From the IMG/VR virus record IMGVR_UViG_3300020274_000001, positions 1 to 64,000 of that record: a stretch of 64,000 nucleotides of DNA. The stretch is one strand, 5' to 3'. The notes under the pieces are model-generated. The model was given only the letters and a program-made list of their open reading frames with translations, was not told the DNA's origin and did not search any database. Shown one piece after another: positions 2,262-59,341 of the stretch. Within the stretch, counting starts at the first letter, position 1, and each line of letters begins with the position of its first letter. Origin of the DNA: a virus. Both the position numbers and the translations under genes were made by a program.

Positions 2262-2295
2262 GCACCCTTGGTGACTCTTTTAGGAGGTATCAAAT

Positions 2296-3027: not shown

Positions 3028-3203
3028 GCATAGTTGGCTTTAGTCAATGACTCTCCCCTACGGGGGTGTGGCATACAATATAGCGTAAGCCACGCCCCTG
3101 TTTTGGAGAGCACCGTAACGAATACGGTTATAATCGTATTCGCTATCGCATTGACAAGGGCCGACAGCCCAACACCAATAAGAAACAGAACAGGTGATAA
3201 ATT

Positions 3204-4190
3204 ATGGCAAACGCAAACCAATCAGCAAACAGAGCAGGAAATGTCTTCGGTCGAGAGGCCGGAGCCGGCTTCGCCGGGAACGACTGGGAGAACATTGTTC
3301 TCAAACCGGGGTATATTATCAAGGTTAGAGACAGGTTCCACCTTGTAGAAGCAGTCGAGGGACTTACCGTCGACCTCTTCTTTAACGACAGTTTTACTTT
3401 TACTGTCGCAGGTGGAAAGATTGACGCCGCAGACGACGGAAACATGTTACTCCAATACGGAGACGAGTCGATGCAGACGGCGTTAGTCCCTCAAACGACT
3501 ACACCAGTGGGGAACAAAGCATATCCCGATACGAGGGCTAACATTCTAAAGCCTTCATACGACAGTGGTTTCATTGAATTCAAAGACCTTGAACCATACC
3601 GTGGACACTTGTATCACTTGTGTCCTTCGGTCCCGACACAACCGAAATTCATCGACATCGAATCAGGAAATTGGCTTGTCCCAGCAGGTTCGGCCACAGG
3701 TCTTAACCCAGATAACGGAGGAACACCAATGGGATTCAAGGCGTCTGGGACGGCTGAACACAACATGAACGTAGGAACAATATCTCCTAAAGTCTACCTT
3801 CGTCACCCTGCGGGTGTGCCGAAGTGGGTTTTGGATGAGGCACCAGAAGGTTCCAGTGGTTCAGTAAGGGTTTCTTCAACCCTTGAAGGTCTATCCGGAT
3901 TCATTGACGGACAAATCAGTCCTGTCGAAGACCCAGATTGGACATACTCGATATGGATTGAGTCTGGAGAGAACAACCTACCATCGTTCAAAATGGTTAA
4001 CGACACACAAGAAGTCATCATTGATGGCCGCCTGCATTTGCAGGGATGGAAGTATCGTATCGTCGAGTTAGGCATGGACCAATTGAAACAAATCCGTGAC
4101 CGAAGTGGCGGTCGGTTGACTTTCAAGATTGTCACGCCCGGAGGCATTCCAACACCCGGAACCTTGCTCGCTGATTACTTCCCACGTTGA
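3204..4190 (+). CDS. putative structural protein (possible second capsid protein)
   Basis: RBS AGGTGA; beta-rich 328 aa; operon context. Confidence 0.5.
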   Translation: MANANQSANRAGNVFGREAGAGFAGNDWENIVLKPGYIIKVRDRFHLVEAVEGLTVDLFFNDSFTFTVAGGKIDAADDGNMLLQYGDESMQTALVPQTTTPVGNKAYPDTRANILKPSYDSGFIEFKDLEPYRGHLYHLCPSVPTQPKFIDIESGNWLVPAGSATGLNPDNGGTPMGFKASGTAEHNMNVGTISPKVYLRHPAGVPKWVLDEAPEGSSGSVRVSSTLEGLSGFIDGQISPVEDPDWTYSIWIESGENNLPSFKMVNDTQEVIIDGRLHLQGWKYRIVELGMDQLKQIRDRSGGRLTFKIVTPGGIPTPGTLLADYFPR

Positions 4191-30365: not shown

Positions 30366-30440
30366 GGCCCCGTGGTGTAATGGATAGCATATGAGGTTCC
30401 GAACCTCATGACCCGGGTTCGACTCCCGGCGGGGCCGCCA
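30366..30440 (+). tRNA. tRNA-Arg(CCG), CCA encoded
   Basis: Acceptor GGCCCCG/CGGGGCC; anticodon arm TGAGG-TTCCGAA-CCTCA; T arm CCGGG-TTCGACT-CCCGG; ends G-CCA. Confidence 0.95.
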
Positions 30441-38528: not shown

Positions 38529-41500
38529 TCACTCGGTATACTTGAGTAACTCTTGACCGACCAACGGTGCTCTTCCTGCTATTGTTGAGCCTGTGACAGA
38601 GCGCATATCGGATACATTTCCAATCACTACTCCTCCTCGCAATTGCTTCTTCACGTCTTCCATAGCCATCGAATCGAAAGTATTGACGGAATTCGTCCCT
38701 ATGTTGCCAGAACCCGGACCTAAACCAATCAGTTTACCTTTAGCAGATATTGCTTCTGCGATAGTAGTGACATACCGGTAATCATAGTCACCTATTCCGC
38801 TTGAAGCATTCATCTGATAATTCAGTTGGTCCGCTACACAGGCTTGAGCGGCTTCTATTCCGAGGAACTTCTCTACTGTCTTAGGGTTGTCACACCATAT
38901 TGAGTCAACGTCAACATAATCTCCAAGTAATCGGACAAGGCCATCCCACACCTGTTCATGAGCAGAATCAATTTGCAAACCATACTTTCCATCTTTACGG
39001 GTGATGTATGTGGAACCTCCTTGTGGTAATCCGGATACTTGAACCAGAGAAATGTAGTCTCGCATGTTTAGCATTGCTCTGGCAGAAGTAGAATTCACCT
39101 TGATAACGAAGTTATCTCCTTCACCAATCTCTGCTCTCAACTCTCCGTCTGGTGAACTTTGCAGGTCACGGAAGACCCTTCTCACTTGTCTCATGGCAAA
39201 CTCAAGGTCGATGCTCTTATCTCGGGCCTTCTTTCTATCAACATAGAAGATACATAGCCCGTTCTCTACATCGTAGTCTACAACATCAAGTATGTCGCCA
39301 ATAAATTGAACTGAACACCAATCTGCAATACGGTCAGCGTCTTCCTCATTCCAATACTCTGGCTTCAGAGTGACGTAGGTAAACACCTGCTTACCCGGGT
39401 CGCTTTGGTCGGAACACTGGACAATTTGGTCAAGACGGTCCACAGATGTTCCCTGTCCTTTACCACCAGCGTGGAATGTTCTAAGTGAACCCTGTGTTGC
39501 CGGTTCTGCGAGACAACCTGCGGCGGTAGAACCGATTGCTTCTCCGGGCTTAACCTTGTTCTCTTCAATCCACCAGAGTAATTTGTCTACCATTGTTTTT
39601 ACCATGGGCTTCATGACCTCTCTTTTAGATAGAACATGTTTTACAGCCGAAATTAGTTTGTTAAGGTCGTGTTTCTTGGAAATTTCGTCTTCGAAGAACT
39701 CTATATGGGCACTTCCTTTAACACACTCGTCGCAATCCATCCCAAGTGGAACCTTGTGTTTACATGTAAAGTCGAAGAAATACGGTTGTAATTCTATGGT
39801 AAAGTCTTCGTCGGGCCCGCTAACAGTAAAGTCTTCTTTTACCTGTCCGTCTGGGAATCGGTGAACCATCTTAGCAGAGTATGGTCGGAACCCGTCTCCA
39901 CCGGCTCTGAAGGATATAACCGAGTTATCTTTCAAGTCTATGGTCTTTCCATCCTTATCTACCACAAGTGATTCTAATGCTCTCCTTACCCTGTTAGCGA
40001 GATAACCAGAGTCTTGTAGAGCACCAGATGAAGATTCCATGTCTGACCTTCTTCCGGCAACAGAAGCCATGAAGTATTCGTGTGGCTCCATTCCGGTGTA
40101 ATATGAGTTACGAGTATATCCATTGTGTATTGGGTGCTCTATATCGTATCCACTAAGAGGATAGTGAGAAAAGTTTCGTGGTAGAATCGTGGTATGTTGT
40201 ATTATTTCTTGAGGGGCCATTTCTCCATCTTCATTCTCTTGATAATTCTTGTATGAAGTCCACCCTTTACTTTGGAAGCCTCGCACTGGCAGAACTCCAG
40301 AAATCCTAACTTGTCCGTATGCCGCCCCCATCTGTTGGATGTTGAGTTCCTTACCTCTGCCCCCAGACCTAACTGCAATCTCCATAGCGTTGTCTGCACC
40401 AGCGATTTGAGATACTGCCATAGCGACACCATCTTCCCAAGGTGCCTGTGCTTCGTAAATGAGCATTTGACGGAACTGATATGGATTCTTATCGAGAATC
40501 TGTTGCTTCTCTGATTTAGAATAATCTGGAGAAAGCCATTTGTCACTATCCACATACCTCTGTAAGTTATAATTAGCGAAGTCGATATTTATCTGCTTGC
40601 ATACTTCGGAGGTTGTATCATAACCCGCTCGTATGTCTTCATAGTATTCCATAGGTAAACCACAATCTGCAACACCCATCGAATAACCTACTGCGTGATG
40701 TGCGGCAAATCCAAGACGGCACAACATATCGATGAATTTCTGCATCTGCTTACCGCCTTCTTCGTAACCAAAGCGATAATAGAACGCGGGAGCAATTGTT
40801 CCCTTTTCTTTACCTGCGAATGTCTTGTCAAGCGTTCCCGTAATCATCTCACCGTCAATGATTACCGTCGTGTCTTTTTCGGGCTTTCCTTTATCGTTGA
40901 GAACCATAGAGCCGTCTTCTTTGTAAAGTATACCAGACTTGAATTTAGCATTGATTCCATCTGGTAGTAGGAGACTTATGCACCGATATCCAGAATAGTA
41001 TTTGCCTTTGACATCGGGTTTACCAATGTCTTCGATATATTGGATACGAGCGTCTCCATCTGGTAGTAGGCTTCCGTCTTTGTGGTATACTTTACTGAAT
41101 AATTCAAGCATACTCTTCTTACTGAAATAAACTACGCCATCTGAATCGAAACCGACACCGATGGACTCGTTGAAAGTATTAGCCTTACTCTTATGCTTCA
41201 TTGTCAAGAGATAAACACCAGAAGTCTGGTCGTGGTCTGTTCCAATTACCAACTTACCCATACGGTGATGAAGCATATTGTCCCTCAACTGTAACTTATC
41301 TCTTATTTCGTTCATGGCCTCTTCAGACCCCGGAACATAGATGTTCATTTGGTCACCGTCATAATCTGCGTTAAATGGAACACAAATCGCAGGATTAAAC
41401 GATATCGAATGCTGGTCTAACGGAACTACTCTCAATCCATTCAATGATTGACGATGTAGGGAAGGCTGTCGGCCAAACAAAACATAATCTCCGGGCAATA

Positions 41501-43523
41501 AGTTACGAGCGACAACATCTCCGACTCTTAATTTAACAGACCCTTCTGGTCCAAACATTTCTCTACGCCTCTCCATGTTCTTTTCCCACTCAAACATCCA
41601 TTCTTCTCGCTTCATTTTTTTAGCGAAATCTACGGTGCTATTTTCGTCTGGCTTAGGTATAGTCTTCTTGTGCTCTACCCATTCTTCGCCGATGGCCCCC
41701 CATCTTCCGTTGTTCCAGAGAGGGGTATCATCAAGTTTCCACCTTCTGACTTCCTTGAGTCCGAATGGTTCAATCCACATCGCTCCCGGATATCTTTGCT
41801 TTACAATATCTCCGAGAGACCAATTGTGTGTAATTGACCGCTTTTCAGAAGGCACCCCTCTAATGACGAGTTCTGTTAATTGGTCTATGTTTTCTTCCGT
41901 TACCTTCACTCTCACATACGTGTTCATACACGCCGCAGTAGGCACTCCAACTTCGTTAATCGAAAGGTCTCCGTTAGCCGTAATTACCGACCGTATGACA
42001 TTGTTAACCACTTTGGAGTTCATCCTTCTCCGAAAGATGGTTTTCTTGCTTCCATATCCCGACACCGTATCGAGGATACCGGCCCTAATTGTCCGCTTTT
42101 CTCGCCCTGCTTTCGTGCGGACCATCTTGGCTCTGAACATACCAATGCTGGCGTTCTGATTGTAGAAGCAATGGGCGACGGAACGGAACAAGTCGCCCAC
42201 CATACGGGTTTGAATTTGACCGGGGTCGTAAGCACGTTGTTTCGCTTGCTTAATCTGATTATTGACACGGACAACTTGCGAATACATCATAGTGAGGTCG
42301 TTCTCCATCGGTCTACCTGTCTTGAAGTCTTCTTGCATTGGTCGCATAGTATTGGGCGCAACCGGCAGAACCTTCATCATCATGTATTCGGGACGCATAG
42401 TAGGGGCGTCAAAGCCCATCATACGAGCATTTTCGTCTGTAATCGACTGTAATAGAATATACACGTTAGAGTAAGGATAGAATCGGGGCCCAACCTTCTT
42501 CTTTAGTGCTGGTTGTAAAAGGAACATTCTTTGTCTTATGTTCCATGTTACTAACGGTGAATCTTTCTCACAATGAGGGCAAATAAGAACGCCTCTATTG
42601 GAATCCCTATTCTTTTCTTTCCTAATCGCTGTATTGATTAAGTTACGAATCCTACCCACGCCGCTTGGGTTCTTGGATATTCGGTGAATCCTCTCTATTT
42701 TCGGTGATAACTCATCATACCTTTCATCAGATATTGGAATCTTGAAACAATGGTGGCAGAACATGTTCAAGACGGAATCAAATGAATTCGGATTGGAGGC
42801 TATTGCGAACAAAACATGGGGAACAGGTTCAGCGAGTTCGATGTGTCCAAAGTGACCGGGGCAGTAGGGTGGGTTGTCGAGTAAGCCCTCACATGTTTGA
42901 CATTGTCCACTTCTTTCACTTGCCCCAAGTCTGCCGTCTACTGGACCATTCATTACGGGAGTAGGTTGTCGAGTCTGTGTTATTGTAGTGTGATTGTTTA
43001 CCTGTAATACAGACATCGCTCGTATATCTTCTGGAGACATCATATTCATTCCTACACGACGAATTACCTTCTCGTCGGTGGTCACTACCGTATCTTTCAC
43101 ATTTACTTTCGCTGTGAATCGAATAGGGGTTGAAACATATACTCCTCGCATACCCATGTCATCGAATTCATCTGGATATTGCTCGGATAAGTCATACACA
43201 TCTTCTGTTTCATAGAAGGTAGCCGGGATTGTAGGAACAACCCCTTCTTCGTCGGGGGTATCATCAAATGTTCCTACATTAACTTGACCTACGAGATAAT
43301 TAATTTTACTCGACCGTAATCCTTCTGCGTCAGGATGCATGTAAAAATATGCAATGGCGGCTGTTTCTCTGTCTGGTAGAAACCTTCGGTCTCCCCCAGA
43401 AATATCAATATCTGCTACTGTAATTTCCTTTCCGTTTTCCAACAACTCTGACCTAAGTTGGTCTTTACGGAAGAACCAATAGAATGAGGTAACTTTGAAT
43501 GGCCCTTCTTGTTCTTCATCCAT
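38529..43523 (-). CDS. rpo1: DNA-directed RNA polymerase largest subunit, fused Rpo1N+Rpo1C (A'+A''), with N-terminal extension
   Basis: SPEDIRAMSV, CQTC..CPGHFGHIEL, RSVIT, GRQPSLHR, catalytic FNADYDGDQMN, SGYLANR, AEPATQGSLRTFH, LGIEAA. Confidence 0.95.
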   Translation of the reverse strand: MDEEQEGPFKVTSFYWFFRKDQLRSELLENGKEITVADIDISGGDRRFLPDRETAAIAYFYMHPDAEGLRSSKINYLVGQVNVGTFDDTPDEEGVVPTIPATFYETEDVYDLSEQYPDEFDDMGMRGVYVSTPIRFTAKVNVKDTVVTTDEKVIRRVGMNMMSPEDIRAMSVLQVNNHTTITQTRQPTPVMNGPVDGRLGASERSGQCQTCEGLLDNPPYCPGHFGHIELAEPVPHVLFAIASNPNSFDSVLNMFCHHCFKIPISDERYDELSPKIERIHRISKNPSGVGRIRNLINTAIRKEKNRDSNRGVLICPHCEKDSPLVTWNIRQRMFLLQPALKKKVGPRFYPYSNVYILLQSITDENARMMGFDAPTMRPEYMMMKVLPVAPNTMRPMQEDFKTGRPMENDLTMMYSQVVRVNNQIKQAKQRAYDPGQIQTRMVGDLFRSVAHCFYNQNASIGMFRAKMVRTKAGREKRTIRAGILDTVSGYGSKKTIFRRRMNSKVVNNVIRSVITANGDLSINEVGVPTAACMNTYVRVKVTEENIDQLTELVIRGVPSEKRSITHNWSLGDIVKQRYPGAMWIEPFGLKEVRRWKLDDTPLWNNGRWGAIGEEWVEHKKTIPKPDENSTVDFAKKMKREEWMFEWEKNMERRREMFGPEGSVKLRVGDVVARNLLPGDYVLFGRQPSLHRQSLNGLRVVPLDQHSISFNPAICVPFNADYDGDQMNIYVPGSEEAMNEIRDKLQLRDNMLHHRMGKLVIGTDHDQTSGVYLLTMKHKSKANTFNESIGVGFDSDGVVYFSKKSMLELFSKVYHKDGSLLPDGDARIQYIEDIGKPDVKGKYYSGYRCISLLLPDGINAKFKSGILYKEDGSMVLNDKGKPEKDTTVIIDGEMITGTLDKTFAGKEKGTIAPAFYYRFGYEEGGKQMQKFIDMLCRLGFAAHHAVGYSMGVADCGLPMEYYEDIRAGYDTTSEVCKQINIDFANYNLQRYVDSDKWLSPDYSKSEKQQILDKNPYQFRQMLIYEAQAPWEDGVAMAVSQIAGADNAMEIAVRSGGRGKELNIQQMGAAYGQVRISGVLPVRGFQSKGWTSYKNYQENEDGEMAPQEIIQHTTILPRNFSHYPLSGYDIEHPIHNGYTRNSYYTGMEPHEYFMASVAGRRSDMESSSGALQDSGYLANRVRRALESLVVDKDGKTIDLKDNSVISFRAGGDGFRPYSAKMVHRFPDGQVKEDFTVSGPDEDFTIELQPYFFDFTCKHKVPLGMDCDECVKGSAHIEFFEDEISKKHDLNKLISAVKHVLSKREVMKPMVKTMVDKLLWWIEENKVKPGEAIGSTAAGCLAEPATQGSLRTFHAGGKGQGTSVDRLDQIVQCSDQSDPGKQVFTYVTLKPEYWNEEDADRIADWCSVQFIGDILDVVDYDVENGLCIFYVDRKKARDKSIDLEFAMRQVRRVFRDLQSSPDGELRAEIGEGDNFVIKVNSTSARAMLNMRDYISLVQVSGLPQGGSTYITRKDGKYGLQIDSAHEQVWDGLVRLLGDYVDVDSIWCDNPKTVEKFLGIEAAQACVADQLNYQMNASSGIGDYDYRYVTTIAEAISAKGKLIGLGPGSGNIGTNSVNTFDSMAMEDVKKQLRGGVVIGNVSDMRSVTGSTIAGRAPLVGQELLKYTE

Positions 43524-46444: not shown

Positions 46445-46450
46445 TACACC

Positions 46451-46492
46451 ACATATGTAGGCCACGCACACTCATATAATGAAGGAGGAGAG
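46451..46492 (+). promoter_or_regulatory. conserved 42-nt promoter-like repeat, copy 1
   Basis: ACATATGT..CACGCACACTCATATAATGAAGGAGGAGAG; 30-nt core identical in three copies. Confidence 0.75.
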
Positions 46493-47003
46493 ACTACAAT
46501 CTCTCAACTAATTGATTGTAAATCTTGGAAGAACCAAGTGCGCGTCTCTCTCCTTCACAGACCAAGGCAGGTTCTTTTGAGCCTGCTGTCCTCTTGTGGC
46601 CTAACCTTCGGGTTTATCAGTGCCACTTGAGGAATCGCAAAAGTCCTACCCCTCCAAGGGTAGGCGAAAAAAAAATCTCCTAAAAGTAATGGAGATTACT
46701 GTAACGAGGTGGTAGAATGGTCGAGAGGCCGGGGGCCGGCCAGTGGAAACACTGCACGGAACGCCACAATTAGCAATACATTCCTGAGAAACAGGACTGC
46801 GACTACGAACCACATTTAATTGTGGCATCCCGTAAGGGATGAAGAAGAATGTGCTTGTGCTCACGCAAAGGTGTCGTCCCGGGTCATGCCGGCGATACTG
46901 ACACAAGAGGAAACTCGCGGAAGTTATAGTAATTATTGATATTACTCGTGGTTTAGCAACCACATAGAAACTTGGGGTGGCTCCCCTTAGCAAAAAGCCA
47001 TAG
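46480..47003 (+). ncRNA. structured noncoding RNA 1 (about 520 nt)
   Basis: No credible ORF; stems with UUCG (46603-46614), GAAA (46741-46754) and GUAA (46827-46840) loops; TGAAGGAG/CTCCTTCA long stem. Confidence 0.6.
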
Positions 47004-47129
47004 ATGAACGTTCAAGACCTACTTGACAACCCGATGGTTGAGAAGCATATATTTCTCGACTTTGACGGTAACATCGTATGCCGCTTTGAGCATCCGGAAT
47101 TCATTTTCGAGATGACTCAAGAAGCATAA
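47004..47129 (+). CDS. 41-aa hypothetical protein (not in ORF track)
   Basis: ATG immediately after a hairpin+ATAG; MNVQDLLDNPMVEKHIFLDFDG... Confidence 0.5.
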   Translation: MNVQDLLDNPMVEKHIFLDFDGNIVCRFEHPEFIFEMTQEA

Positions 47130-47149
47130 CTTGGCCCAATGGGTCACAG

Positions 47150-47431
47150 ATGTCGTTTAATTACGCATTTATCAAAGCAGACACCAAGGCGGAAGTCCTT
47201 GAGGCAGTTTCAAACTTGCCTCATGAACCGAAGCAAGCGGTTTCTGGAACACAGGCCCATGGCCTGTCATTCAGCGGTCCTGCCGCTGATGAGAGAACAA
47301 CCATATGGTATGACTTGGCTAACCCCCAATACTCCATAATGTTCATCCGAACATTTGTCGACGAAAACGACTATGATGGTAGAGAAATCGACCCATCAGA
47401 GTGGGCGTCGACTATGGAAAGACTCTCATGA
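47150..47431 (+). CDS. hypothetical protein
   Basis: Bounded by two hairpin elements. Confidence 0.6.
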   Translation: MSFNYAFIKADTKAEVLEAVSNLPHEPKQAVSGTQAHGLSFSGPAADERTTIWYDLANPQYSIMFIRTFVDENDYDGREIDPSEWASTMERLS

Positions 47432-47787: not shown

Positions 47788-47829
47788 ACATATGTGACTC
47801 ACGCACACTCATATAATGAAGGAGGAGAG
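47788..47829 (+). promoter_or_regulatory. promoter-like repeat, copy 2
   Basis: Same 30-nt core. Confidence 0.75.
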
Positions 47830-48435
47830 GGGAGTATCCTAAAAGGACCCCTCAGAGACAACCAACTCCTTCACAGACGCCTAACCGGTCTTGTTTTGTC
47901 GTAAAAAACAATAAGAAGAACGGTAAACAGAAAGAGAGGGATAGAGGGTCCCTCACAGATTGGGCAGGGAAAGACATCTTGTTGATACTGTCTGTGTTTG
48001 CAAAGATTCTGCATTTATGTAGAATCTGCGTAAACTGCATTTAATTGCAAGCAGGCAGAGGAGAGATGGACGGAACTGTCCGAACACATACAACACAGAA
48101 AAGTTGTAACAGTAAAGCCGATGGTCACTTTGAGAAATCAACGTGACTGTCGGCTATTTTTTATGGCCCCATTGGGGTCTTAGGTTGGGATGAGCCATGT
48201 AAGCGGAACTCAAGATATGTCCATGAGAGACCTCTGTTGAGAATTAAAAAACTCACTTGCTAAATCATCCTCAGATTTGTGGGGGAACCCACATATCACA
48301 AGGAGGTGAAACCTTGAATTTATAATACACAACTTTGCGCAATTAGGAACCGATGATGGAGGGTGGATGCCCGTTGATGTCATTGTGCGGTGTAGCAAAG
48401 TGGGCCCCGTTAGAACATGCCGCCGCGGGCCACAG
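47817..48435 (+). ncRNA. structured noncoding RNA 2 (about 620 nt)
   Basis: No credible ORF; stems 48004-48027 and 48116-48155; 5' TGAAGGAG/CTCCTTCA stem. Confidence 0.5.
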
Positions 48436-52045: not shown

Positions 52046-53083
52046 ATGTCAGACGACATTGAATTGTATGATGAGGTAGACCTCATCAAAAAGATGACGA
52101 GAGATTTGAAAAAATCGTCATCTTCATTGAAGAAACCGGAAGTTCGGTTTCTGGTTGATGCATACTACCGTATGCAGGAAAAGCGTATCCAATACGCCAG
52201 CCAGATTCGAACTATGAAGGAATTCGGTGAGCCGCACGAACTACTAACATGGTTCTACACGCAGGCTCATACCCTTGAAAAGCAAATTGCTGGAGCACTC
52301 GATGCTTACAGCACGAGCAATAAAGTGGGACAATGGATGCGAAGCATTCCGGGCATTGGTCCGGTAATTGCGGCTGGATTCATGGCTCACCTTGATATTG
52401 CTCCGTGGCGTTGTCATAACGTCGGACTCAAGGGCAAGAAAAACCTTCCTTGCACCGCTGAAAAGGGTGCCTGCACAGACAATTGTGGCCACGAGCCTAT
52501 CAATTACGCTGGACAATGGCACACGTTTGCAGGAATGAATCCTCGCATCCAGTGGGAAAAGAAAACACGCCGACCATGGAACACAGCACTCAAAACGCTG
52601 TGTTACAAGTTGGGTGAATCGTTCGTAAAGGTTCAAAACCATAAGGACGATTTCTACGGTCAAATCTTCGTTGCGCGTAAATCCCAAGAATGGGAGCGCA
52701 ACTTCAATGGTGAGAATGCCAAAGCGGCAGAACTTGCTTTGAAGAAAAACATCGGAAAGAACACGAATGCCTACAAGTGGTATTCTGGAGCAGTGGCCAG
52801 TGATTGGGCACGTTCAGAGTGGGAATCCGATAAGAAAGGACAGAAGTTTGGAGGAGCAACGCTCCCCAAGAAAGCAATTGTTGAAGACGGAACACCTATG
52901 CTTCCGCCGGCACACATTCACGCACGAGCGCGACGCTATGTCGCCAAGTTGTTCTTGTTCCACCTGCATCAAGTTATGTGGGAAGTTGAACAAGGTGAAT
53001 CACCGCCACCACAGGCTTTCTTCCAAGACAGTGAAAACATCATTGAGGTGCCAACTGTCTTCCCGAACTCTCCGTTCGTTTGA
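52046..53083 (+). CDS. IS110/Nop-family RNA-binding protein lacking a RuvC domain (TasA-like)
   Basis: Coiled coil LVDAYYRMQEKRI; HhH SIPGIGPVIAA; FAGMNP; PWNTALKTLCYKLGESFVK; AHIHARARRYVAKLFL; no N-terminal DEDD. Confidence 0.75.
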   Translation: MSDDIELYDEVDLIKKMTRDLKKSSSSLKKPEVRFLVDAYYRMQEKRIQYASQIRTMKEFGEPHELLTWFYTQAHTLEKQIAGALDAYSTSNKVGQWMRSIPGIGPVIAAGFMAHLDIAPWRCHNVGLKGKKNLPCTAEKGACTDNCGHEPINYAGQWHTFAGMNPRIQWEKKTRRPWNTALKTLCYKLGESFVKVQNHKDDFYGQIFVARKSQEWERNFNGENAKAAELALKKNIGKNTNAYKWYSGAVASDWARSEWESDKKGQKFGGATLPKKAIVEDGTPMLPPAHIHARARRYVAKLFLFHLHQVMWEVEQGESPPPQAFFQDSENIIEVPTVFPNSPFV

Positions 53084-53791: not shown

Positions 53792-54037
53792 ATGTCGAAG
53801 CAAAACGACAAAGCATACACAACCGAAGATATCGGTAAAGAAGTAACGTTGAATATTGATGGCGTTGCTCTCAACGATGTCGTGGTCGAAGTTGCACTAC
53901 CCGGAAGGGGAAGCATCATCGGCCCTACATTTGTGTGCGCTCACATATTTGCTCGTCTGACTATGATGGAGGCCATGATGGCCGCATCAGCACACGCCAA
54001 CCGAGAGCGTGATGATTGGTCAGACGAAATGGCTTGA
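53792..54037 (+). CDS. hypothetical protein
   Basis: Start after hairpin+ACAG. Confidence 0.55.
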   Translation: MSKQNDKAYTTEDIGKEVTLNIDGVALNDVVVEVALPGRGSIIGPTFVCAHIFARLTMMEAMMAASAHANRERDDWSDEMA

Positions 54038-54062
54038 TGCCAGACGGTCCTATGGACCACAG

Positions 54063-54200
54063 ATGAAATGTCCACACTGTGACAAATCTATCGCTGTCCG
54101 GCTTGAACAACCGGGCAAGAAGGCGGCTCGCCGTCGAACTCTTCGTGCCCGTAAGGCAGAGAAGTTGAGAGAAATCCAACCATCTAACGAAGAAGAATGA
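54063..54200 (+). CDS. small basic protein with CPHC
   Basis: Start after hairpin+ACAG. Confidence 0.55.
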   Translation: MKCPHCDKSIAVRLEQPGKKAARRRTLRARKAEKLREIQPSNEEE

Positions 54201-54215
54201 CCCAATGGGTCGCAG

Positions 54216-54803
54216 ATGTTCTCTAAAAAAGACATTTATGATGATATGATTGGCAATGCCAGTCCCGATGTTATTCGGTATATGAAGGAATATTACGGTT
54301 CACCCCGTAATTTCTTCAACGAAAATGAGGTAGAGGCTTACAACCCTAAACCTCAAAAGCCGAAAAAGAAAGGCACGGTAATCATCTATCGTGGTTTGCC
54401 CGGAAGTGGCAAATCAACTTCCATCTCTAAAAGGTTCCCGAACGCCGCCGTGTGTTCGGCGGACCACCATTTCTATGGTGAAGATGGAGAATACAATTTC
54501 AAACCATGGGAACTTCCCATGGCACATCAAGAGTGTTACTATAATTTCGTCAACCTTCTCTTCGCTGAAGAGGAATTGGTGATTGTAGACAACACGAATA
54601 TGTGTAGATGGGAGTATATGAATTATGCTCTCCTCGCCCAAAAGATGGGATACAAAGTGAGAATCATTTGCATGGCCCCCGGTCTGCATGATTCGACCTC
54701 TATCCCGACACTCGCCGAGCGAAACAAGCATGGAGTGGATGTTGATACCATCTGCAAAATGCAGTCTCGTTATGAACCCGAGTATGGGGAAGAAATTGAG
54801 TAA
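54216..54803 (+). CDS. P-loop kinase (AAA_33 / N4BP2-like polynucleotide kinase family)
   Basis: YRGLPGSGKST, CSADHHF, IVDNTN, RNKHGV. Confidence 0.82.
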   Translation: MFSKKDIYDDMIGNASPDVIRYMKEYYGSPRNFFNENEVEAYNPKPQKPKKKGTVIIYRGLPGSGKSTSISKRFPNAAVCSADHHFYGEDGEYNFKPWELPMAHQECYYNFVNLLFAEEELVIVDNTNMCRWEYMNYALLAQKMGYKVRIICMAPGLHDSTSIPTLAERNKHGVDVDTICKMQSRYEPEYGEEIE

Positions 54804-54821
54804 CGGTCCAATGGACCATAG

Positions 54822-54982
54822 TCTGGTAGTTACGAGGTGGCAATAACCCGCCTTAATCGTCCGAGGGTCGCTCCCTTGGGGCCTCGTAGCAACCTCGCTT
54901 GGGTGGAGGCTTTCCACCGCTTGACTTCCTCGGACTTCGGTCCTTGCCGTTCCCAAGACGGGAGGATTAGGTGGGTGCCAGA
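54822..54982 (+). ncRNA. GC-rich structured RNA (about 160 nt)
   Basis: Starts right after hairpin+ATAG; closed by TCTGGTA/TGCCAGA; internal stems incl. GGAC-TTCG-GTCC. Confidence 0.45.
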
Positions 54983-55109
54983 CATCCAAGCGTAGATTAA
55001 AATGAGTATGAAATCGAAGACGCAGACTTTCGTGGTCTGCATGACTTTGATGATGTTCGGTCTTTTCACGACCGTCATCATGCAACTCGGCTAATGGCCA
55101 CAGAGCAAC

Positions 55110-55313
55110 ATGGGTAACAGAGGAAATCCATCACGCAAGTCTCGTTGGAGCGGAAAAGCCCATATTAAGGCTGAAGAGAAGCGAAGACGAAGAGAAGAAG
55201 CAAAACAAGCGATAAGGGAAGCACAAATAGAAAGGGTGGAATGTGAAAACGAAGTAATACTCTACCGAAGAATCCCTATTCGATATGATGGCGTAATACG
55301 CAATCATAATTGA
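55110..55313 (+). CDS. small basic protein
   Basis: Bounded by hairpin elements. Confidence 0.5.
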   Translation: MGNRGNPSRKSRWSGKAHIKAEEKRRRREEAKQAIREAQIERVECENEVILYRRIPIRYDGVIRNHN

Positions 55314-55540
55314 TTCTTAACGGCCAATGGCCACAGAAAACTGTTAAAGACAATCCGAAGTATGGAGTGACATGCAAGACTACCAAGTCCGATGCACCGT
55401 TGCGGCCATGCTTTATGTCGGAGGGCAAGTTAAGTCCTACGAAGAAGCATTGAAAATTGCAGACAGCATGTTGAATGCTTCTAAGCAGTATCAAGGTTAA
55501 TCGCACATATGTGCCAAAAAAAACCATAGAACAGGGCACA

Positions 55541-55582
55541 ACATATGTGCCTCACGCACACTCATATAATGAAGGAGGAGAG
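55541..55582 (+). promoter_or_regulatory. promoter-like repeat, copy 3
   Basis: Same 30-nt core; an additional CACATATGTG palindrome at 55504. Confidence 0.75.
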
Positions 55583-56715
55583 GACCACCAATCCAGAATC
55601 CTTCATAACCCGAGTGTCGCGGAATACTAATTCCGAATGTCACTCGGGTTAGTGTTATTTCATAGAAGGGAGTTTGCTCGAAGCCGAGCATCCCCACAGA
55701 ATACCTACGTGTAAACCCACAAGTGCCTCTTCGGAGGTTGGCCTAATCAGAGGTCCTCGGCGAAAGCCGACCTAATTGTGGTCTCGTAGGGGACACCACC
55801 CCTCCGGCTTGGCCGGTTGGAGTGTGGATTGTGTGTCTTACCGGGGAGTAGCATGAAGACTCCCAAGGTAGGGCTTGGGTATGGTCCGTTCAAAAGGACC
55901 ATAATGCGCAATTGAACACAAGAAGAAAAAAGACAGGAAAATAGTTTGCCGGTAATCAACCCGGGGCTATGGACGTGTTCGCCTTCGGGCGAAGAAGATG
56001 TGCCGGGAAGAGGAAACCCGGTTGTTCTTGGAAACATTACTGCCGTATTCTGGCTGGCACCAGAAGGAGTAGTGGAGAAAGGAGACCCCCTTGGGGGGAT
56101 ACGGAATCATGCTGGGCCTGCACTAACACTGCGGGGTTCCCGGTGATTCTAACGCGCCTGCGGGTTGATAACCGCAGGCCACCGACCATGACGTGAAAAC
56201 CAAAAGGTCGGCATCTGACACAACCGAGAAATCGGACTTTAGTAGATTAACACTCGAACGAGATTTTCTGAATTGTGGACCTGCCGGTTTAAGACCGGAC
56301 GGGCCGAAAGGTATCAATTGGACTGAGGGACCGCTGAATAAGCGGGTCGGCGTTTTAGTCGTTTACCGAAACAAGGAATGGACACGTATCAACGATAATG
56401 ACTTATCACCAATGAACGTCTTACGGTTAGTTCCGTTCCTGTGAATAACTCAAATGCTCTTGGAGAATGTAGCCGTAAGACGTTAAATTCTCTGTCAATA
56501 GAGCCTCCCCATGCCTCCCCGGATGGACACACGTAGATGATGAACTTATTTCATCCGCCACGCTTTGTGAAAGCAACTACGACAGCAGACAAGGAAGGAA
56601 CATCTTCCTTAACTGCATCATTGAAAGCACTTCACGGCGACATGGTGCGAAGAGGATATCCTCCGAGCACTACAACAACTAAAACAAGAGTGGATTGAAG
56701 TTCACTCTTTTTTTT
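55570..56715 (+). ncRNA. large ornate noncoding RNA (about 1.15 kb)
   Basis: Dense stems with UUCG/GNRA loops (55726, 55757, 55978, 56224); long pairings 55606/55641 and 56415/56472; no credible ORF. Confidence 0.7.
56686..56715 (+). terminator. hairpin plus T-run
   Basis: AAGAGTGGA-TTGAAG-TTCACTCTT-TTTTTT. Confidence 0.55.
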
Positions 56716-56779
56716 GGGATTCGAAACATAGAATATGAAATTTATTTAGAATGAACGAACTCGAATCTCTTAGGTTAAA

Positions 56780-58264
56780 ATGTCAAACAAAAAGACAAAC
56801 AACAACCGCAAATCCGGTAATGCCGGAAAGGGAGGCAATGCCTCCAAGCGAGGAAACCACAAGCAGGGGCGCGGGAAACCAGCCTCTCGTGATGACCTCA
56901 AAGGTGGGAGCAGTAATGGTTACAACCATCGCTCTCCTATCGGAAATCGTAAGTCAAAGAGACACAACACTCACCGAGTGAGTGCTGATAAAGCCTCTGG
57001 CAAGCAAAACACGAAACCGAAGATGATGCCGAAAGGTAGAATTCCTCGGAACAGCAAGGCACCAATGGTTCCTTGGGTAGAACTTCCAAAGTCTGCTCAA
57101 GTCCACCATTACTACTTTGTTATTCGTGAATGTCTTGAAGGTGCTTACGAATGGGATGCGAAAAACAAGGCTCGAAACCTTGGAATTCGCCAACTCGACC
57201 TGCACGGCTCAACAGCCGGCTCTGTCGAGTCTATGTTGACCCAAACCGCTCGACTACGTCGTGATTGGAGAGCCGTTGTTGGTATTCTAAGAATGCTACA
57301 CGCGGACGACCTAATCTCGGCTTCATTTGTCGAGAAGATACTGAACAACCATCCTCTAACGGGTGCTAAGTCAGTAAGGGTCACCCAAGACACTGAATTC
57401 GTTAGCGATTACATTCGTGACAAGAGTTCTCTGTCGAACAAATCATGGGTAAAAGATGCGAAAGCATCGTATACTCGTGCACTCAAACGCATTCGTGCTG
57501 ATTGGGAGAAGGAAACGGTTGACGCTGAAAAAGCGAAATACCCAGACCTCTCTGATGAACAATACGCACATGCGGCCAGCGTTGCATGGAAAGCAATGTC
57601 GAATGACCGAAAGGCACCGACAATTGAAGTGGATGGTGAATCTATTCTGTGTAAAACAGAGGATGCCTTCGTTTCTGCTCACATGCAACGTCGAGCACGC
57701 AAGGAAGCCGCAAGGCTCCCTGCCCTATACCGCCTCAAAGGTGGAGTATCTTACAAGATGTTGGATAAAGACGGCGAGATTGTTTCTCGTTCCGACTTCG
57801 TTAACATCGAATACGCTGTAAGAAACAACGGCAAAATTTTCATTGCCGTCGTCAATGGAGGAGGAAGAGGAAAGGTGGCTAATTCACCATTCCGCTCCGA
57901 AGCATACAACATGAAATCCCGTAAGGGAGATGAGTTGCACATTGATGATGTTGGAACGCCCACAGAGGTGGAAACCAACGTAATTCAGCGTGAGATACCC
58001 GAAACCGAGGGAGCAAAACTCCCATCAGACCCTAAGCGTCTGAAAGAGGTTCTTGGTGACGAAAAGAGGATGAATAAAATCCTTGAACCGGACATGCATC
58101 TTCCCGTCGAGGAAGTTATTGACCGGATGAACCAAGCACAATGGGGAGTTCCTTCGCAATCGAAAGATAAAGCGAAGAAACGCTCAAAGAAGGCGACGAG
58201 AAAGGTGGACATGTCCGCTAACCGTCGTGCTGGTCGACGCTCTGACAAGAGCGAAGATGAGTGA
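56780..58264 (+). CDS. 494-aa protein with very basic disordered termini (candidate RNA-binding protein)
   Basis: K/R/N/G-rich first 90 aa and last 35 aa; directly follows the large ncRNA. Confidence 0.7.
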   Translation: MSNKKTNNNRKSGNAGKGGNASKRGNHKQGRGKPASRDDLKGGSSNGYNHRSPIGNRKSKRHNTHRVSADKASGKQNTKPKMMPKGRIPRNSKAPMVPWVELPKSAQVHHYYFVIRECLEGAYEWDAKNKARNLGIRQLDLHGSTAGSVESMLTQTARLRRDWRAVVGILRMLHADDLISASFVEKILNNHPLTGAKSVRVTQDTEFVSDYIRDKSSLSNKSWVKDAKASYTRALKRIRADWEKETVDAEKAKYPDLSDEQYAHAASVAWKAMSNDRKAPTIEVDGESILCKTEDAFVSAHMQRRARKEAARLPALYRLKGGVSYKMLDKDGEIVSRSDFVNIEYAVRNNGKIFIAVVNGGGRGKVANSPFRSEAYNMKSRKGDELHIDDVGTPTEVETNVIQREIPETEGAKLPSDPKRLKEVLGDEKRMNKILEPDMHLPVEEVIDRMNQAQWGVPSQSKDKAKKRSKKATRKVDMSANRRAGRRSDKSEDE

Positions 58265-58276
58265 TGTCGGGGGCCA

Positions 58277-58738
58277 ATGGCCCCCCCAGTGCAAACCGAT
58301 ACTAACACTATTGATTACACGCAAGCCGTCAATGACGGTATAGTCGTTCTTCAGAACGGCGTCCGGGTGCTTAACAGTTCACCCCACTCCTTCGTCTTCG
58401 ACGATGGGACTACGGTGCCGTCTTGCGGCATCAGCCTCAACTGTGACTTTGTCGAAAACGAGGCTAACCCGAAAGACATTTTCAGCGACCTCACGTTTGT
58501 GACGATTGCGAAGATGCCGCGAGCAGAGGGCATTGCGTTCCTCGACGTCGTTCCAATCGACGTTCTCGTGCTCGGGTCTGCACATGCGGCAGAAGCCTAT
58601 GGCTTTCCTGTCGTTATGCCGGTTCCAACACCGGATTCTAAAAGAGGCTCCTTCGCTGATAGGAGAGTCTGCTCTGACCGTTTCACGGTTACCCAGACTC
58701 CACCCGTTCGTTCGGGGGTCTCTTTGGACAGTCTTTGA
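58277..58738 (+). CDS. hypothetical protein (phage-type)
   Basis: LNSSPHSFVF...VLVLGS pattern; start overlaps a hairpin element. Confidence 0.55.
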   Translation: MAPPVQTDTNTIDYTQAVNDGIVVLQNGVRVLNSSPHSFVFDDGTTVPSCGISLNCDFVENEANPKDIFSDLTFVTIAKMPRAEGIAFLDVVPIDVLVLGSAHAAEAYGFPVVMPVPTPDSKRGSFADRRVCSDRFTVTQTPPVRSGVSLDSL

Positions 58739-58846
58739 GACGGCCAATGGCCACAGTAAACATACAAGGCGATGCCTGCGGAAACGCAGTCATCGCTTAT
58801 TTTTTTGGGCGAGATATTCATATACTCTCGCCGTAGAGGTAAAGAC

Positions 58847-59341
58847 ATGAGTCATTACACTGAAGTAAAGTCGGCATTCAGCAGTGAACACACTACTGAA
58901 ATGGTGTCGGCTTTGGAGGAATTGTGGCCAGAAGCCACAATTCTTGTTAGCGAAGAAGGAACCGCTAAATGCCGTGGATGGCCGGGGCAACAGCCCCGTA
59001 ACTGCCACGTTGTTGTTCGTTTCCGAAACCCAAATATCGAAAAGCAAGGAAACTATGATATTGGGTTCATCAAGAGAGCCGATGGCTCTTATGCGATGAT
59101 TTCTGATTGGTATGCTTGCACATACCCAGAAGCAACGAACGACCAAGGGCGAACCGGTTCTAACGCAGTAGAGGGAATGATTAAGCCACTCTACACTAAG
59201 AATCTGATGAAGAAGACTTTGAAGAAGAACAAGCGATTGCGAGGCTTCAAAGACATCAGTAAGAAGAACGACATTATCACAAAGAAGGATAAGAACGGAA
59301 AGAGTGTTCGATACGCTCGACTACGTTACCAAAGGACGTGA
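58847..59341 (+). CDS. DUF1257 (Ycf35-like) protein
   Basis: MSHYTEVKS..ALEEL...YDIGFIKRADGSYAMISDWY. Confidence 0.75.
   Translation: MSHYTEVKSAFSSEHTTEMVSALEELWPEATILVSEEGTAKCRGWPGQQPRNCHVVVRFRNPNIEKQGNYDIGFIKRADGSYAMISDWYACTYPEATNDQGRTGSNAVEGMIKPLYTKNLMKKTLKKNKRLRGFKDISKKNDIITKKDKNGKSVRYARLRYQRT

What the first reader, a model, noticed from the sequence alone, without database searches (positions are those of the whole stretch)
55570..56773. About 1.15-kb ornate ncRNA behind a dedicated promoter repeat, followed by a highly basic protein
Seen: many stems capped by stable tetraloops (CCTC-TTCG-GAGG 55726, TCGGC-GAAA-GCCGA 55757, TTCGCC-TTCG-GGCGAA 55978, CCGA-GAAA-TCGG 56224), plus 11-13 bp pairings (55606/55641, 56415/56472) and a terminator-like end. 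A further stem GGGATTCGA/TCGAATCTC followed by TTAG precedes ORF 56780, matching the processing motif. Established: large structured RNAs such as GOLLD and ROOL occur in phages. Inference: a new large ncRNA or ribozyme, possibly forming an RNP with the 494-aa basic protein.
Basis: partly seen in the sequence, partly recalled or inferred. Interest (0 to 1): 0.8.

Follow-up and report, generated by a model that had tools for sequence, protein, structure and literature searches.

The report
New giant RNA of ocean archaeal viruses
A marine virus that probably infects archaea carries a gene for a non-coding RNA of about 840 bases, elaborately folded, that matches no known RNA family and is present in ocean RNA samples.

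Summary
The boundaries need correcting.

- **Non-coding:** every frame has stops in all 18 sequences, three recoded-stop codes do not open it, and substitutions show no 3-base periodicity.
- **Structured:** folding gives z = -6.
- **Conserved:** the region is present upstream of the 494-aa gene in 19 of 19 assessable related metagenome loci.
- **Covariation:** an 18-sequence alignment gives 279 pairs, 96.1% of cells paired, and 113 pairs with compensatory double changes (18-28 in slid controls). It also supports a 12-bp pseudoknot.
- **Strand:** G-U asymmetry puts the RNA on the + strand.
- **Size and limits:** the unit is about 838 nt (55699-56536). An invariant long-range helix closes it, and helix + YAG|A motifs bound both ends.
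- **Correction at the 3' side:** the last about 240 nt of the finding hold a conserved 53-aa gene, a terminator-like hairpin and a spacer hairpin.
- **Correction at the 5' side:** the first about 130 nt are leader hairpins with no cover in RNA contigs.
- **Expression:** metatranscriptome contigs from four studies cover the RNA. In one run their depth is 2137-3320, against 5-31 for flanking genes.
- **Family:** no Rfam family matches.

Function is unknown. My best guess is a stable trans-acting scaffold, possibly bound by the unusually basic proteins encoded beside it. This scan also noted the same stretch in another window of this genome.

The parts
55372..55500 (+). 42-aa ORF directly upstream, the most conserved protein of the neighbourhood
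   Evidence: tblastn finds it in 17 of 21 loci at 80-100% aa identity. Differences sit mostly at third codon positions, e.g. 21 of 26 in L012 and 24 of 36 in L024. No Pfam family.
55537..55583 (+). Promoter-like repeat: palindrome ACATATGTG, then an invariant 30-mer holding TCATATAATG. Its role as a promoter is inferred, not shown.
   Evidence: Three copies in the genome, at 46447, 47788 and 55540. ACATATGTG gives 6 matches against 0.58 expected. It is conserved in relatives (columns 1-45). The sigma-70 scan finds nothing here.
55572..55604 (+). Leader hairpin L1 (GAAGGA...TCCTTC)
   Evidence: helix 3: 3 of 5 pairs change on both sides. The arms are fully re-matched in L019, L020 and L024. No RNA-contig cover at 55503-55669.
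55606..55650 (+).
   Evidence: helices 5-6: 10 + 4 pairs, 96.6% and 86.1% of cells paired, 6 pairs with double changes.
55668..55698 (+). Variable hairpin followed by CACAG. The YAG|A motif marks the 5' boundary of the RNA.
   Evidence: The stem sequence differs in every lineage, but YAGA is kept in all 18 sequences (columns 399-437). L019 and L008 carry insertions of about 290 and about 100 nt just before it. One X8 contig begins, loose letters included, at G55698.
55699..55833 (+). 5' domain of the RNA: multi-way junction with TTCG and GAAA hairpins, plus two further hairpins
   Evidence: helices 9-15. An X1 contig covers 55725-56154 with 0 mismatches at depth 2137.
55834..56530 (+). Core of the RNA (697 nt), closed by an invariant long-range helix (55834-55855 with 56511-56530)
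   Evidence: 372 of 697 positions are invariant in 18 sequences. Closing helix: 20 pairs, 14 never vary, 97.8% paired (helix 16). About 35 further helices, most with compensatory changes. An X5 contig of 682 nt spans 55835-56515.
56415..56484 (+). Pseudoknot: 56415-26 pairs with 56473-84 and crosses helix 56371-88 / 56427-42
   Evidence: 12 pairs, 98.1% of cells paired, 2 pairs with double changes in 8 sequences. The crossed helix has 4 such pairs.
56531..56536 (+). ACGTAG: the NYAG motif at the 3' boundary, directly followed by the ATG of the small ORF
   Evidence: All 18 sequences have (N)YAGA right after the closing helix (columns 1311-1320). RNA contigs of three studies stop at 56511-56516 without loose ends.
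56537..56698 (+). Conserved 53-aa basic ORF (pI 10.2)
   Evidence: 3-base periodicity of variation is 9.5x the median power in 56540-56780, against 0.7x in the core. An ORF of 52-60 aa with a shared C-terminal motif was found in 12 of 13 sequences checked (the window and 12 loci). tblastn hits in 18 of 21 loci. pI.
56686..56715 (+). Terminator-like hairpin plus T8 overlapping the stop codon of the small ORF
   Evidence: Present in close relatives only (L004-L011).
56716..56773 (+). Spacer hairpin GGGATTCGA/TCGAATCTC followed by TTAG, 6 nt before the ATG at 56780
   Evidence: The arms are re-matched in L009-L011. Distant relatives have a short hairpin + ATAG + AGGTATC + ATG instead.
56780..58264 (+). 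494-aa basic protein of unknown fold
   Evidence: pI 9.93, N-terminal 95 aa pI 12.0. 17 homologs. No Pfam or PHROG family. AF2 mean pLDDT 57, core residues 105-360 mostly 70-90. No Foldseek hit at E <= 0.001. Best VIA Z 6.0, generic helices.

Best explanation
Window 55699-56536 (+ strand) is the gene of a previously undescribed structured non-coding RNA of about 838 nt. It belongs to a lineage of marine viruses that probably infect archaea.

**Shown**
- It does not code for protein.
- About 50 helices and one 12-bp pseudoknot are kept by compensatory substitutions.
- Four of its GAAA tetraloops are conserved, three of them invariant, and a 20-bp invariant helix closes a 697-nt core.
- The unit length is held at 830-859 nt in 18 sequences.
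- It occurs once in the genome.
- RNA contigs of four studies cover it. In one run their depth is two orders of magnitude above that of contigs from the flanking genes.

**Inferred**
- Transcription starts at the 45-nt repeat at 55537-55583.
- The leader hairpins and the downstream small-ORF mRNA are separated from the RNA at 'helix + NYAG|A' sites. These sites stand at both of its boundaries in every relative.
- The excised RNA folds compactly, using GNRA tetraloops and the pseudoknot, and acts in trans during infection as a stable scaffold.
- The most likely form is a ribonucleoprotein with the small or basic proteins encoded beside it: the 42-aa ORF upstream, and the 53-aa and 494-aa basic proteins downstream.

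**My odds:** a real, discrete, stable trans-acting structured RNA about 0.95; processing at the YAG sites about 0.55; RNP with the neighbouring proteins about 0.4.
For: **Non-coding.**
- The longest ORF in the finding under code 11 is 96 aa.
- TAG=Q, table 4 and TAA=Q do not open it.
- All six frames hold 2-21 stops in each of 18 sequences.
- The core shows no 3-base periodicity (0.68x median power).

**Structure.**
- z = -6.03.
- RNAalifold gives 218 pairs, 89 of them with compensatory changes.
- Counted on 18 sequences there are 279 pairs. 96.1% of cells are paired, against 85.5% in shuffles and 36-45% when slid.
- 113 pairs have double changes, against 18-28 when slid.
- The covariation score is 0.341, against 0.05-0.07 when slid.
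- The pseudoknot is supported.

**Strand.**
- The consensus structure has 475 G-U cells on the + strand. Mirrored on the - strand there are 28 G-U cells and 642 mismatches.
- Alifold energy is -557.5 against -489.0.

**Conservation.**
- The RNA is present in 19 of 19 loci that have upstream sequence.
- Core identity is 73-79% where the neighbouring protein is 28-52% identical.
- 372 of 697 positions are invariant.

**Expression.**
- X1 contigs 55725-56154 and 56125-56381 have 0 mismatches and word depths of 2137 and 3320.
- X1 contigs of the same strain on flanking genes have depths of 5.5, 6.8, 14.9, 5.25 and 31.
- X5 has a 682-nt contig at 55835-56515.
- Contigs of X5, X8 and X12 (three studies) stop at 56511-56516.
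- 24 runs of 10 studies hold parts of the stretch.

**Boundaries.** YAGA follows a helix at both ends in all 18 sequences.

**Neighbours.**
- pI is 9.93 and 10.2 in a proteome with median pI 5.93.
- The 42-aa ORF is 80-100% identical in 17 loci.

**Single copy.** nhmmer finds one match in the genome.
Against: - **Function and partners are untested.** The loci were found through the 494-aa protein, so the linkage of RNA and protein is biased by how the loci were gathered.
- **The contig evidence is limited.** Contig depths are one figure per contig. The tool warns that they cannot rank genes, cannot give the strand, and cannot give true ends.
- **The 3' end is uncertain.** The contigs stop about 20 nt before the proposed 3' end (56536). 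Either the mature 3' end lies inside the closing helix, or the contigs are trimmed.
- **The 5' end is thinly supported.** Only one contig begins at the proposed 5' end.
- **The processing signal is not shown genome-wide.** My permissive hairpin + NYAG detector found 349 sites on the + strand, against 354-416 in 10 local shuffles. The signal's generality therefore rests on the local conservation only.
- **The promoter is doubtful.** Hairpin L1 starts right after the TATAAT-like box. That does not fit an archaeal TATA box placed about 25 nt before the start. The promoter assignment is unproven.
Confidence: 0.75

Rival explanations
1. An RNA-only homo-oligomeric assembly, working like GOLLD or ROOL of phages. 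The RNA multimerises into a cage or ring by itself, and the neighbouring proteins are unrelated to it.
For: - It shares size, ornate multi-helix architecture, virus encoding and high abundance with those RNAs.
- From the abstract of PMC12286853, seen in the listing: GOLLD, ROOL and OLE form homo-oligomers.
- Peripheral arms at 55930-56110 vary fast while staying paired.
Against: - No sequence or structure match to ROOL in the whole genome at E <= 10. The control genomes did not ring either, so this test is weak.
- No match to any Rfam family.
- No tRNA gene nearby; the only one in the window is at 30366.
- I saw no self-complementary conserved loop, but I made no systematic search for one.
Confidence: 0.2
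2. A decoy or sponge for a host factor, such as ribosomal subunits, an RNase or an RNA-guided defence. The RNA is made in bulk to titrate that factor.
For: - Very high apparent abundance.
- An invariant hairpin loop AAGAGGAAA (56008-16), and the GGAGG-rich leader, look like Shine-Dalgarno sequences. Such motifs are enriched 8-13x before the virus's genes.
- Fast-evolving paired arms among close relatives could reflect an arms race.
Against: - A decoy rarely needs about 50 conserved helices with 53% invariant positions.
- The CCUCC-like runs at the 3' end are paired within the closing helix (helix 16).
- No host genome was available to test complementarity.
Confidence: 0.15
3. A large ribozyme, either self-processing at its YAG boundaries or with another catalytic activity.
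For: - Size and compact-fold hallmarks typical of large ribozymes: four conserved GAAA tetraloops (three invariant), a long-range pseudoknot, and many invariant unpaired nucleotides.
- A conserved YAG|A stands at both ends.
- A polynucleotide-kinase-like ATPase gene lies about 1 kb upstream in 11 loci. It could act on 5'-OH ends.
Against: - No match to group I or group II introns, RNase P or the small self-cleaving ribozymes in Rfam.
- No domain-V-like hairpin on inspection.
- The same YAG motif also follows unrelated simple hairpins in the leader. That fits a protein nuclease better than self-cleavage.
Confidence: 0.12
4. A giant cis-acting leader that controls translation or stability of the 53-aa ORF and the 494-aa gene.
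For: - The small ORF's ATG follows the closing helix by 6-10 nt in every relative.
- All these features share the same orientation and sit behind one promoter-like repeat.
Against: - RNA contigs stop before the ORF. No contig of any of the 4 runs covers 56520-56780, while the RNA has depth in the thousands in X1.
- About 840 nt, about 50 helices and rRNA-like conservation are far beyond known leaders.
- L022 has an extra 211-aa ORF between the small ORF and the 494-aa gene.
Confidence: 0.06
5. Not an RNA at all. It is instead a DNA-level element (origin of replication, cruciform) or a decayed gene.
For: Both strands fold equally well relative to shuffles (z -6.03 and -6.06).
Against: - Strong G-U strand asymmetry.
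- Metatranscriptome contigs at high depth.
- Compensatory changes that keep pairing.
- No reading frame survives in any relative.
Confidence: 0.02

Closest known systems
GOLLD and ROOL RNAs of bacteriophages and prophages
   Same: Virus-encoded, 0.6-0.8 kb, many-helix 'ornate' architecture with pseudoknots. Function is unknown for these too, and the RNAs are abundant.
   Different: - No match to the ROOL model or to any Rfam family.
- The host is probably archaeal.
- No adjacent tRNA gene.
- This RNA is bounded by helix + YAG motifs and sits between tiny conserved ORFs.
- Oligomerisation is untested.
OLE RNA with its Oap proteins
   Same: A large, very abundant structured RNA that works as an RNP with small or basic partner proteins encoded nearby. 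This is what I propose here.
   Different: - OLE is a cellular RNA of anaerobic Firmicutes.
- There is no Rfam match here.
- The partner proteins here have no Pfam family.
- Binding is untested.
phi29 pRNA
   Same: A structured RNA encoded by a tailed virus that acts in trans as part of a viral machine.
   Different: - pRNA is about 170 nt and sits on the portal.
- Nothing here links the RNA to packaging.
- There is no Rfam match.
Large ribozymes (group I and II introns, RNase P RNA)
   Same: Size, GNRA tetraloops, long-range pairings, and a core of invariant unpaired nucleotides.
   Different: - No model match (group-II-D1D4-1 gave only a 14-nt chance hit elsewhere in the genome).
- No reverse transcriptase or maturase ORF lies within the RNA unit.
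- No exon context.
Tan1, a 229-nt abundant ncRNA of marine group II archaea (PMC5069720, passages read)
   Same: An abundant structured ncRNA seen in marine metatranscriptomes and linked to the presumed host group.
   Different: It is 229 nt against about 838 nt, and it is cellular rather than viral.

Membership tests
Structured non-coding RNA gene (generic) | No conserved reading frame | tested here: met
Structured non-coding RNA gene (generic) | Base pairs kept by compensatory substitutions above controls | tested here: met
   113 of 279 pairs with double changes, against 18-28 when slid. 0 of 500 shuffles reach the observed covariation score. Pseudoknot.
Structured non-coding RNA gene (generic) | Transcribed and accumulating as RNA | tested here: met
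   contigs of 4 RNA runs from 4 studies. Strand and exact ends are not shown, because only contigs were available.
ROOL RNA (RF03087) | Match to the family covariance model | tested here: not met
   0 matches in the whole genome at E <= 10. The control genomes held none either; no match.
GOLLD RNA | Match to the family covariance model | tested here: not met
   All-family Rfam scans found nothing. That GOLLD is among the 4227 families is recalled. My recalled accession was wrong, so no single-family run was made.
GOLLD / ROOL | Homo-oligomeric RNA-only particle | not testable with these tools
   Needs biochemistry or cryo-EM.
GOLLD / ROOL | Frequent neighbourhood of tRNA genes (recalled feature) | tested here: not met
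   the only tRNA in the window is at 30366-30440, about 25 kb away.
Group II intron | Domain V/VI or D1-D4 model match; intron-encoded reverse transcriptase | tested here: not met
   Searches gave no hit. One search gave only a 14-nt hit at E 3.9, at 99349, outside the region. No open frame lies in the unit.
Archaeal RNase P RNA / SRP RNA / rRNA | Match to the Rfam models | tested here: not met
   no match at E <= 10 (window stretch) or E <= 5 (6 relatives).
RNP with the co-encoded basic proteins (OLE-like mode of action) | Physical binding of the RNA by the 42-aa, 53-aa or 494-aa proteins | not testable with these tools
   Only linkage and charge are available.

The most novel reading that the evidence does not exclude
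The RNA is the core of a new virus-encoded RNA machine. One form would be a ribozyme. Another would be a ribosome- or RNA-processing-directed RNP built with the ultra-conserved 42-aa and basic 53-aa and 494-aa proteins. It would have rRNA-like sequence constraint plus fast-evolving specificity arms. That would make it the first large catalytic or regulatory RNP known from an archaeal virus, and a class apart from GOLLD, ROOL and OLE.
Probability: 0.25. Interest if true: 0.95.

Novelty: new variant of a known kind. Interest (0 to 1): 0.82.

Why it matters
Large, intricately folded RNAs of unknown function are rare. Each known one (ribosome, RNase P, introns, and lately the cage-forming GOLLD and ROOL) has revealed new biology.

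- **No match found.** This RNA matches no Rfam family. I found no description of it in seven full-text searches.
- **Unusual source.** It comes from viruses that probably infect abundant uncultured ocean archaea.
- **Apparent abundance.** In one marine RNA sample its contigs are far deeper than those of its neighbour genes.
- **Ready for experiment.** There are 18 diverse sequences and a covariation-backed secondary structure, which is enough to start cryo-EM and biochemistry.
- **Link to gene expression.** The helix + YAG boundaries tie it to an apparently genome-wide way of cutting transcripts in this virus. That could bear on how archaeal viruses that carry their own RNA polymerase express their genes.

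Tried and rejected
**Alternative genetic codes.** TAG=Q, table 4 and TAA=Q do not open a frame.

**Known RNA families.** The gathering scan of the whole window gave only a tRNA. The E <= 10 scan of 55000-57200 gave three chance hits to eukaryotic snoRNA and lncRNA models, E 0.56-3.2. The E <= 5 scan of six relatives' loci gave 0 hits.

**Phage database.** blastn found no match.

**Searches for relatives that failed.**
- Viral contigs with the 494-aa protein, with the RNA polymerase and with alignment A1: nothing.
- Two invariant RNA motifs in viral contigs and one in genome contigs: 0 matches.
- A1 in genome contigs: 0 relatives.

All known relatives therefore come from the one metagenome scan. 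Records very near the window may be hidden by the tools.

**A second copy in the genome.** There is none.

**Fold of the 494-aa protein.** Mean pLDDT was 57. Foldseek against the PDB gave no hit at E <= 0.001. VIA-align wide gave a top Z of 6.0 on generic helices. The ESM Atlas gave no usable hit. None of this was informative.

**Pfam on the small ORFs.** Nothing for the 42-aa or 53-aa ORFs or three other small neighbouring ORFs; a sixth (54009-54200) gave only a sub-threshold zinc-ribbon hit, E 0.063.

**Genome-wide test of hairpin + NYAG.** My crude detector was too permissive: 349 sites against 354-416 in shuffles. NYAG directly followed by ATG occurs at 113 of 2173 NYAG sites, which is only a hint.

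**Circular RNA.** No joint between the two ends appeared in the contigs (table 5). The one joint listed, 55909 to 55991 in X12, replaces 81 letters with 88 others, so it is a variant arm.

**No RNA-contig cover.** There was none at 55503-55669 or at 56520-56780. The tool states that holes prove nothing.

**Literature.** Seven searches and passages of two papers gave no description of this RNA. Supplements are closed, so tables of ncRNAs in PMC5069720 could not be checked.

**Not tried.** Complex prediction was not used, because I do not claim protein-protein binding. No covariance model was built, because the unit exceeds the 400-column limit.
Full report
**1. What is at the coordinates**

The window is the first 64 kb of a 140,336-bp virus record with direct terminal repeats. 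Between 55570 and 56773 the longest code-11 ORF is 96 aa, on the minus strand. Reading TAG, TGA or TAA as sense opens nothing convincing.

The + strand of 55570-56560 folds at -376.1 kcal/mol, against -321.4 +/- 9.1 for 20 dinucleotide shuffles (z = -6.03). The minus strand gives z = -6.06.

**2. Relatives**

The region has no match in the phage collection. Two invariant motifs have no match in viral contigs, and one of them none in genome contigs.

I therefore aligned the homologs (A1) and scanned the collections:
- Viral contigs: none;
- Genome contigs: none;
- Metagenome contigs: 21 loci.

Of these 21 loci, 19 have sequence upstream of the gene, and all 19 match the non-coding region by blastn. 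The other two, L018 and L021, start inside the gene.

**3. It is a structured RNA, on the + strand**

An 18-sequence alignment (A2) covers window 55540-56545 plus 17 of the 19 loci. L006 and L023 were left out as near-duplicates of L005 and L011.

| Measure | Result | Control |
|---|---|---|
| RNAalifold pairs | 218, of which 89 have compensatory double changes | - |
| Pairs in RIBOSUM-scored consensus | 279 in 51 helices | - |
| Cells forming a standard pair | 96.1% | 85.5% in shuffles; 36-45% when partners are slid 1-3 columns |
| Pairs with changes on both sides | 113 | 18-28 when slid |
| Covariation score | 0.341 | 0.05-0.07 when slid; 0 of 500 shuffles reach it |

It crosses another covarying helix, so it is a pseudoknot: 12 pairs, 98.1% paired, and 2 pairs compensated in 8 sequences.

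The consensus holds 475 G-U cells on the + strand. Mirrored on the minus strand there are 28 G-U cells and 642 mismatches, and the alifold energy is -557.5 against -489.0. The RNA is therefore the + strand.

Variation has no 3-base periodicity in the core. Every frame has 2-21 stops in every one of the 18 sequences.

**4. Anatomy and corrected borders**

- **Closing helix.** A 20-pair helix, invariant in sequence (55834-55855 with 56511-56530), closes a 697-nt core. Of those positions, 372 are invariant in all 18 sequences.
- **5' domain.** In front of the core lies a 135-nt domain (55699-55833) that also covaries.
- **Tetraloops.** The GAAA tetraloops at 55762, 56195 and 56228 are invariant; the one at 56306 is GAAA in 17 of 18 sequences.
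- **Boundary motifs.** Both ends of the 55699-56536 unit follow the same pattern in all 18 sequences: a helix, then (N)YAG, then A. At the 5' end the helix is a hairpin whose sequence differs in every lineage.
- **Length.** The unit measures 830-859 nt throughout.
- **Upstream.** Leader hairpins L1 and L2 both covary (helices 3, 5, 6). Before them sits a 45-nt repeat that occurs three times in the genome.
- **Downstream.** The next 160 nt are a real gene of 52-60 aa. Evidence:
  - 3-base periodicity at 9.5x the median power;
  - a shared peptide motif in 12 of 13 sequences checked, the window and 12 loci;
  - tblastn hits in 18 of 21 loci.
- **After the small gene.** The T-run hairpin follows it in the close relatives, and then the spacer hairpin + TTAG before the 494-aa gene.

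The finding's 1.15 kb is therefore leader + an RNA of about 838 nt + small gene + spacers.

**5. Expression**

Parts of 55400-57000 are held by 24 public runs of 10 studies, 18 of them on record as RNA. I laid four RNA runs from four studies on 54000-59000. All four are kept as contigs, so strand, true ends and levels are not given.

- **X1.** Contigs at 55725-56154 and 56125-56381 have 0 mismatches and word depths of 2137 and 3320. Contigs of the same run on flanking genes have 0-1 mismatches and depths of 5.5, 6.8, 14.9, 5.25 and 31.
- **X5.** One contig of 682 nt spans 55835-56515.
- **X8.** This is an oligo-dT library. Its first contig starts, loose letters included, at G55698, and its contigs run to 56516.
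- **X12.** This is a run of only 6.5 million letters. It covers 55833-56511.

Contigs of three studies end at 56511-56516 with no loose end. That is about 20 nt before the proposed 3' end.

No contig covers the leader (55503-55669) or the small ORF. By the tool's own warning, that absence is not evidence.

With those caveats, the data fit a discrete, abundant RNA separate from its neighbours.

**6. Evolutionary pattern**

Core identity to the window is 73-79% in lineages whose 494-aa protein is 28-79% identical. In L019 it is 86.5% although the protein is only 47% identical. In L004 and L005 it is only about 87% although the neighbouring gene is 95-96% identical at the DNA level.

Differences between the window and L004 cluster in the paired arms at 55930-56110. 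One arm, at about 56040-56080, exists in two compensated forms shared across otherwise distant lineages.

I read this as a rigid core plus fast-changing or recombining arms.

**7. Context and host**

The cassette runs: 42-aa ORF, repeat, leader, RNA, 53-aa ORF, 494-aa protein.

- **42-aa ORF (55372-55500).** It is 80-100% identical in 17 loci, with mostly third-position changes. It is more conserved than any neighbouring protein.
- **53-aa and 494-aa proteins.** Their pI is 10.2 and 9.93 (N-terminal 95 residues: 12.0). The genome median is 5.93, and 1.7% of ORFs exceed 10.
- **Families and folds.** None of the three proteins has a Pfam family, and the 494-aa protein has no PHROG family either. 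The 494-aa fold is uninformative.
- **Upstream ATPase.** A polynucleotide-kinase-like ATPase lies about 1 kb upstream in 11 loci.

The host is probably archaeal:
- the RNA polymerase largest subunit matches archaeal Rpo1N best (E 7e-86, against 3e-63 for Rpb1);
- the PolB's best hits in the phage collection are haloarchaeal tailed viruses;
- Shine-Dalgarno-like motifs are enriched 8-13x before the genes.

**8. Comparison and novelty**

No Rfam 15 family matches the window stretch at E <= 10, or six relatives at E <= 5. ROOL finds nothing in the genome.

The RNA works most like the large ornate RNAs of phages (GOLLD, ROOL) or like OLE with its proteins, but it is not a member of any of them.

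Seven literature searches, plus passages of PMC5069720 and PMC11706807, gave no description of it. Supplements could not be read.

**9. Mechanism**

- **Shown:** a conserved, covarying, non-coding RNA on the + strand that is present in ocean RNA samples.
- **Inferred:** a start at the repeat; excision at helix + YAG|A sites; trans action as a compact scaffold, most likely an RNP with the small or basic proteins encoded beside it.
- **Rivals:** an RNA-only assembly, a host-factor decoy, a ribozyme, a cis leader, and a DNA element. Each is listed with its odds.

Noticed in passing
window 46447-47400 and 47788-48366: The same 45-nt promoter-like repeat stands before two other stretches without long + strand ORFs. 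Both fold far better than shuffles, with z -6.19 and -6.15. Both begin with the L1-type hairpin followed by ACAG. They may be further ncRNA units under the same signal.
   Followed up: partly
window 55372-55500: A 42-aa ORF directly upstream of the repeat is 80-100% identical in 17 related loci, with mostly synonymous differences. It is far more conserved than the 494-aa protein. No family is known for it.
   Followed up: partly
window 55930-56110 (arms of the RNA): Close relatives whose flanking gene is 95% identical differ at 13% of RNA core positions, concentrated here and compensated. One arm occurs in two forms shared across distant lineages. This suggests recombination or diversifying selection.
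   Followed up: partly
whole genome G000; window 55659-55666, 55694-55698, 56531-56536, 56770-56773: The (N)YAG motif after a helix recurs at module borders around the RNA. NYAG is directly followed by ATG at 113 of 2173 sites genome-wide. My crude hairpin + NYAG count was not above shuffles.
   Followed up: partly
L019:3650-3960 and L008:100-180; L022:2637-3272: Relatives carry insertions at module borders. L019 has about 290 nt, with small ORFs, and L008 has about 100 nt, both between leader hairpin L2 and the RNA. L022 has a 211-aa ORF between the small ORF and the 494-aa gene.
   Followed up: no
window 52046-53083: A 345-aa protein matches PHROG 4285 'transposase' at E 2e-29 but has no Pfam family. 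It is syntenic in 7 loci. Earlier notes of this scan call it Nop/IS110-like.
   Followed up: no
window 38529-43523 (- strand): A 1664-aa RNA polymerase largest subunit in one piece. Its best solved-structure matches are the archaeal Rpo1N halves. This is unusual for a virus of prokaryotes.
   Followed up: partly
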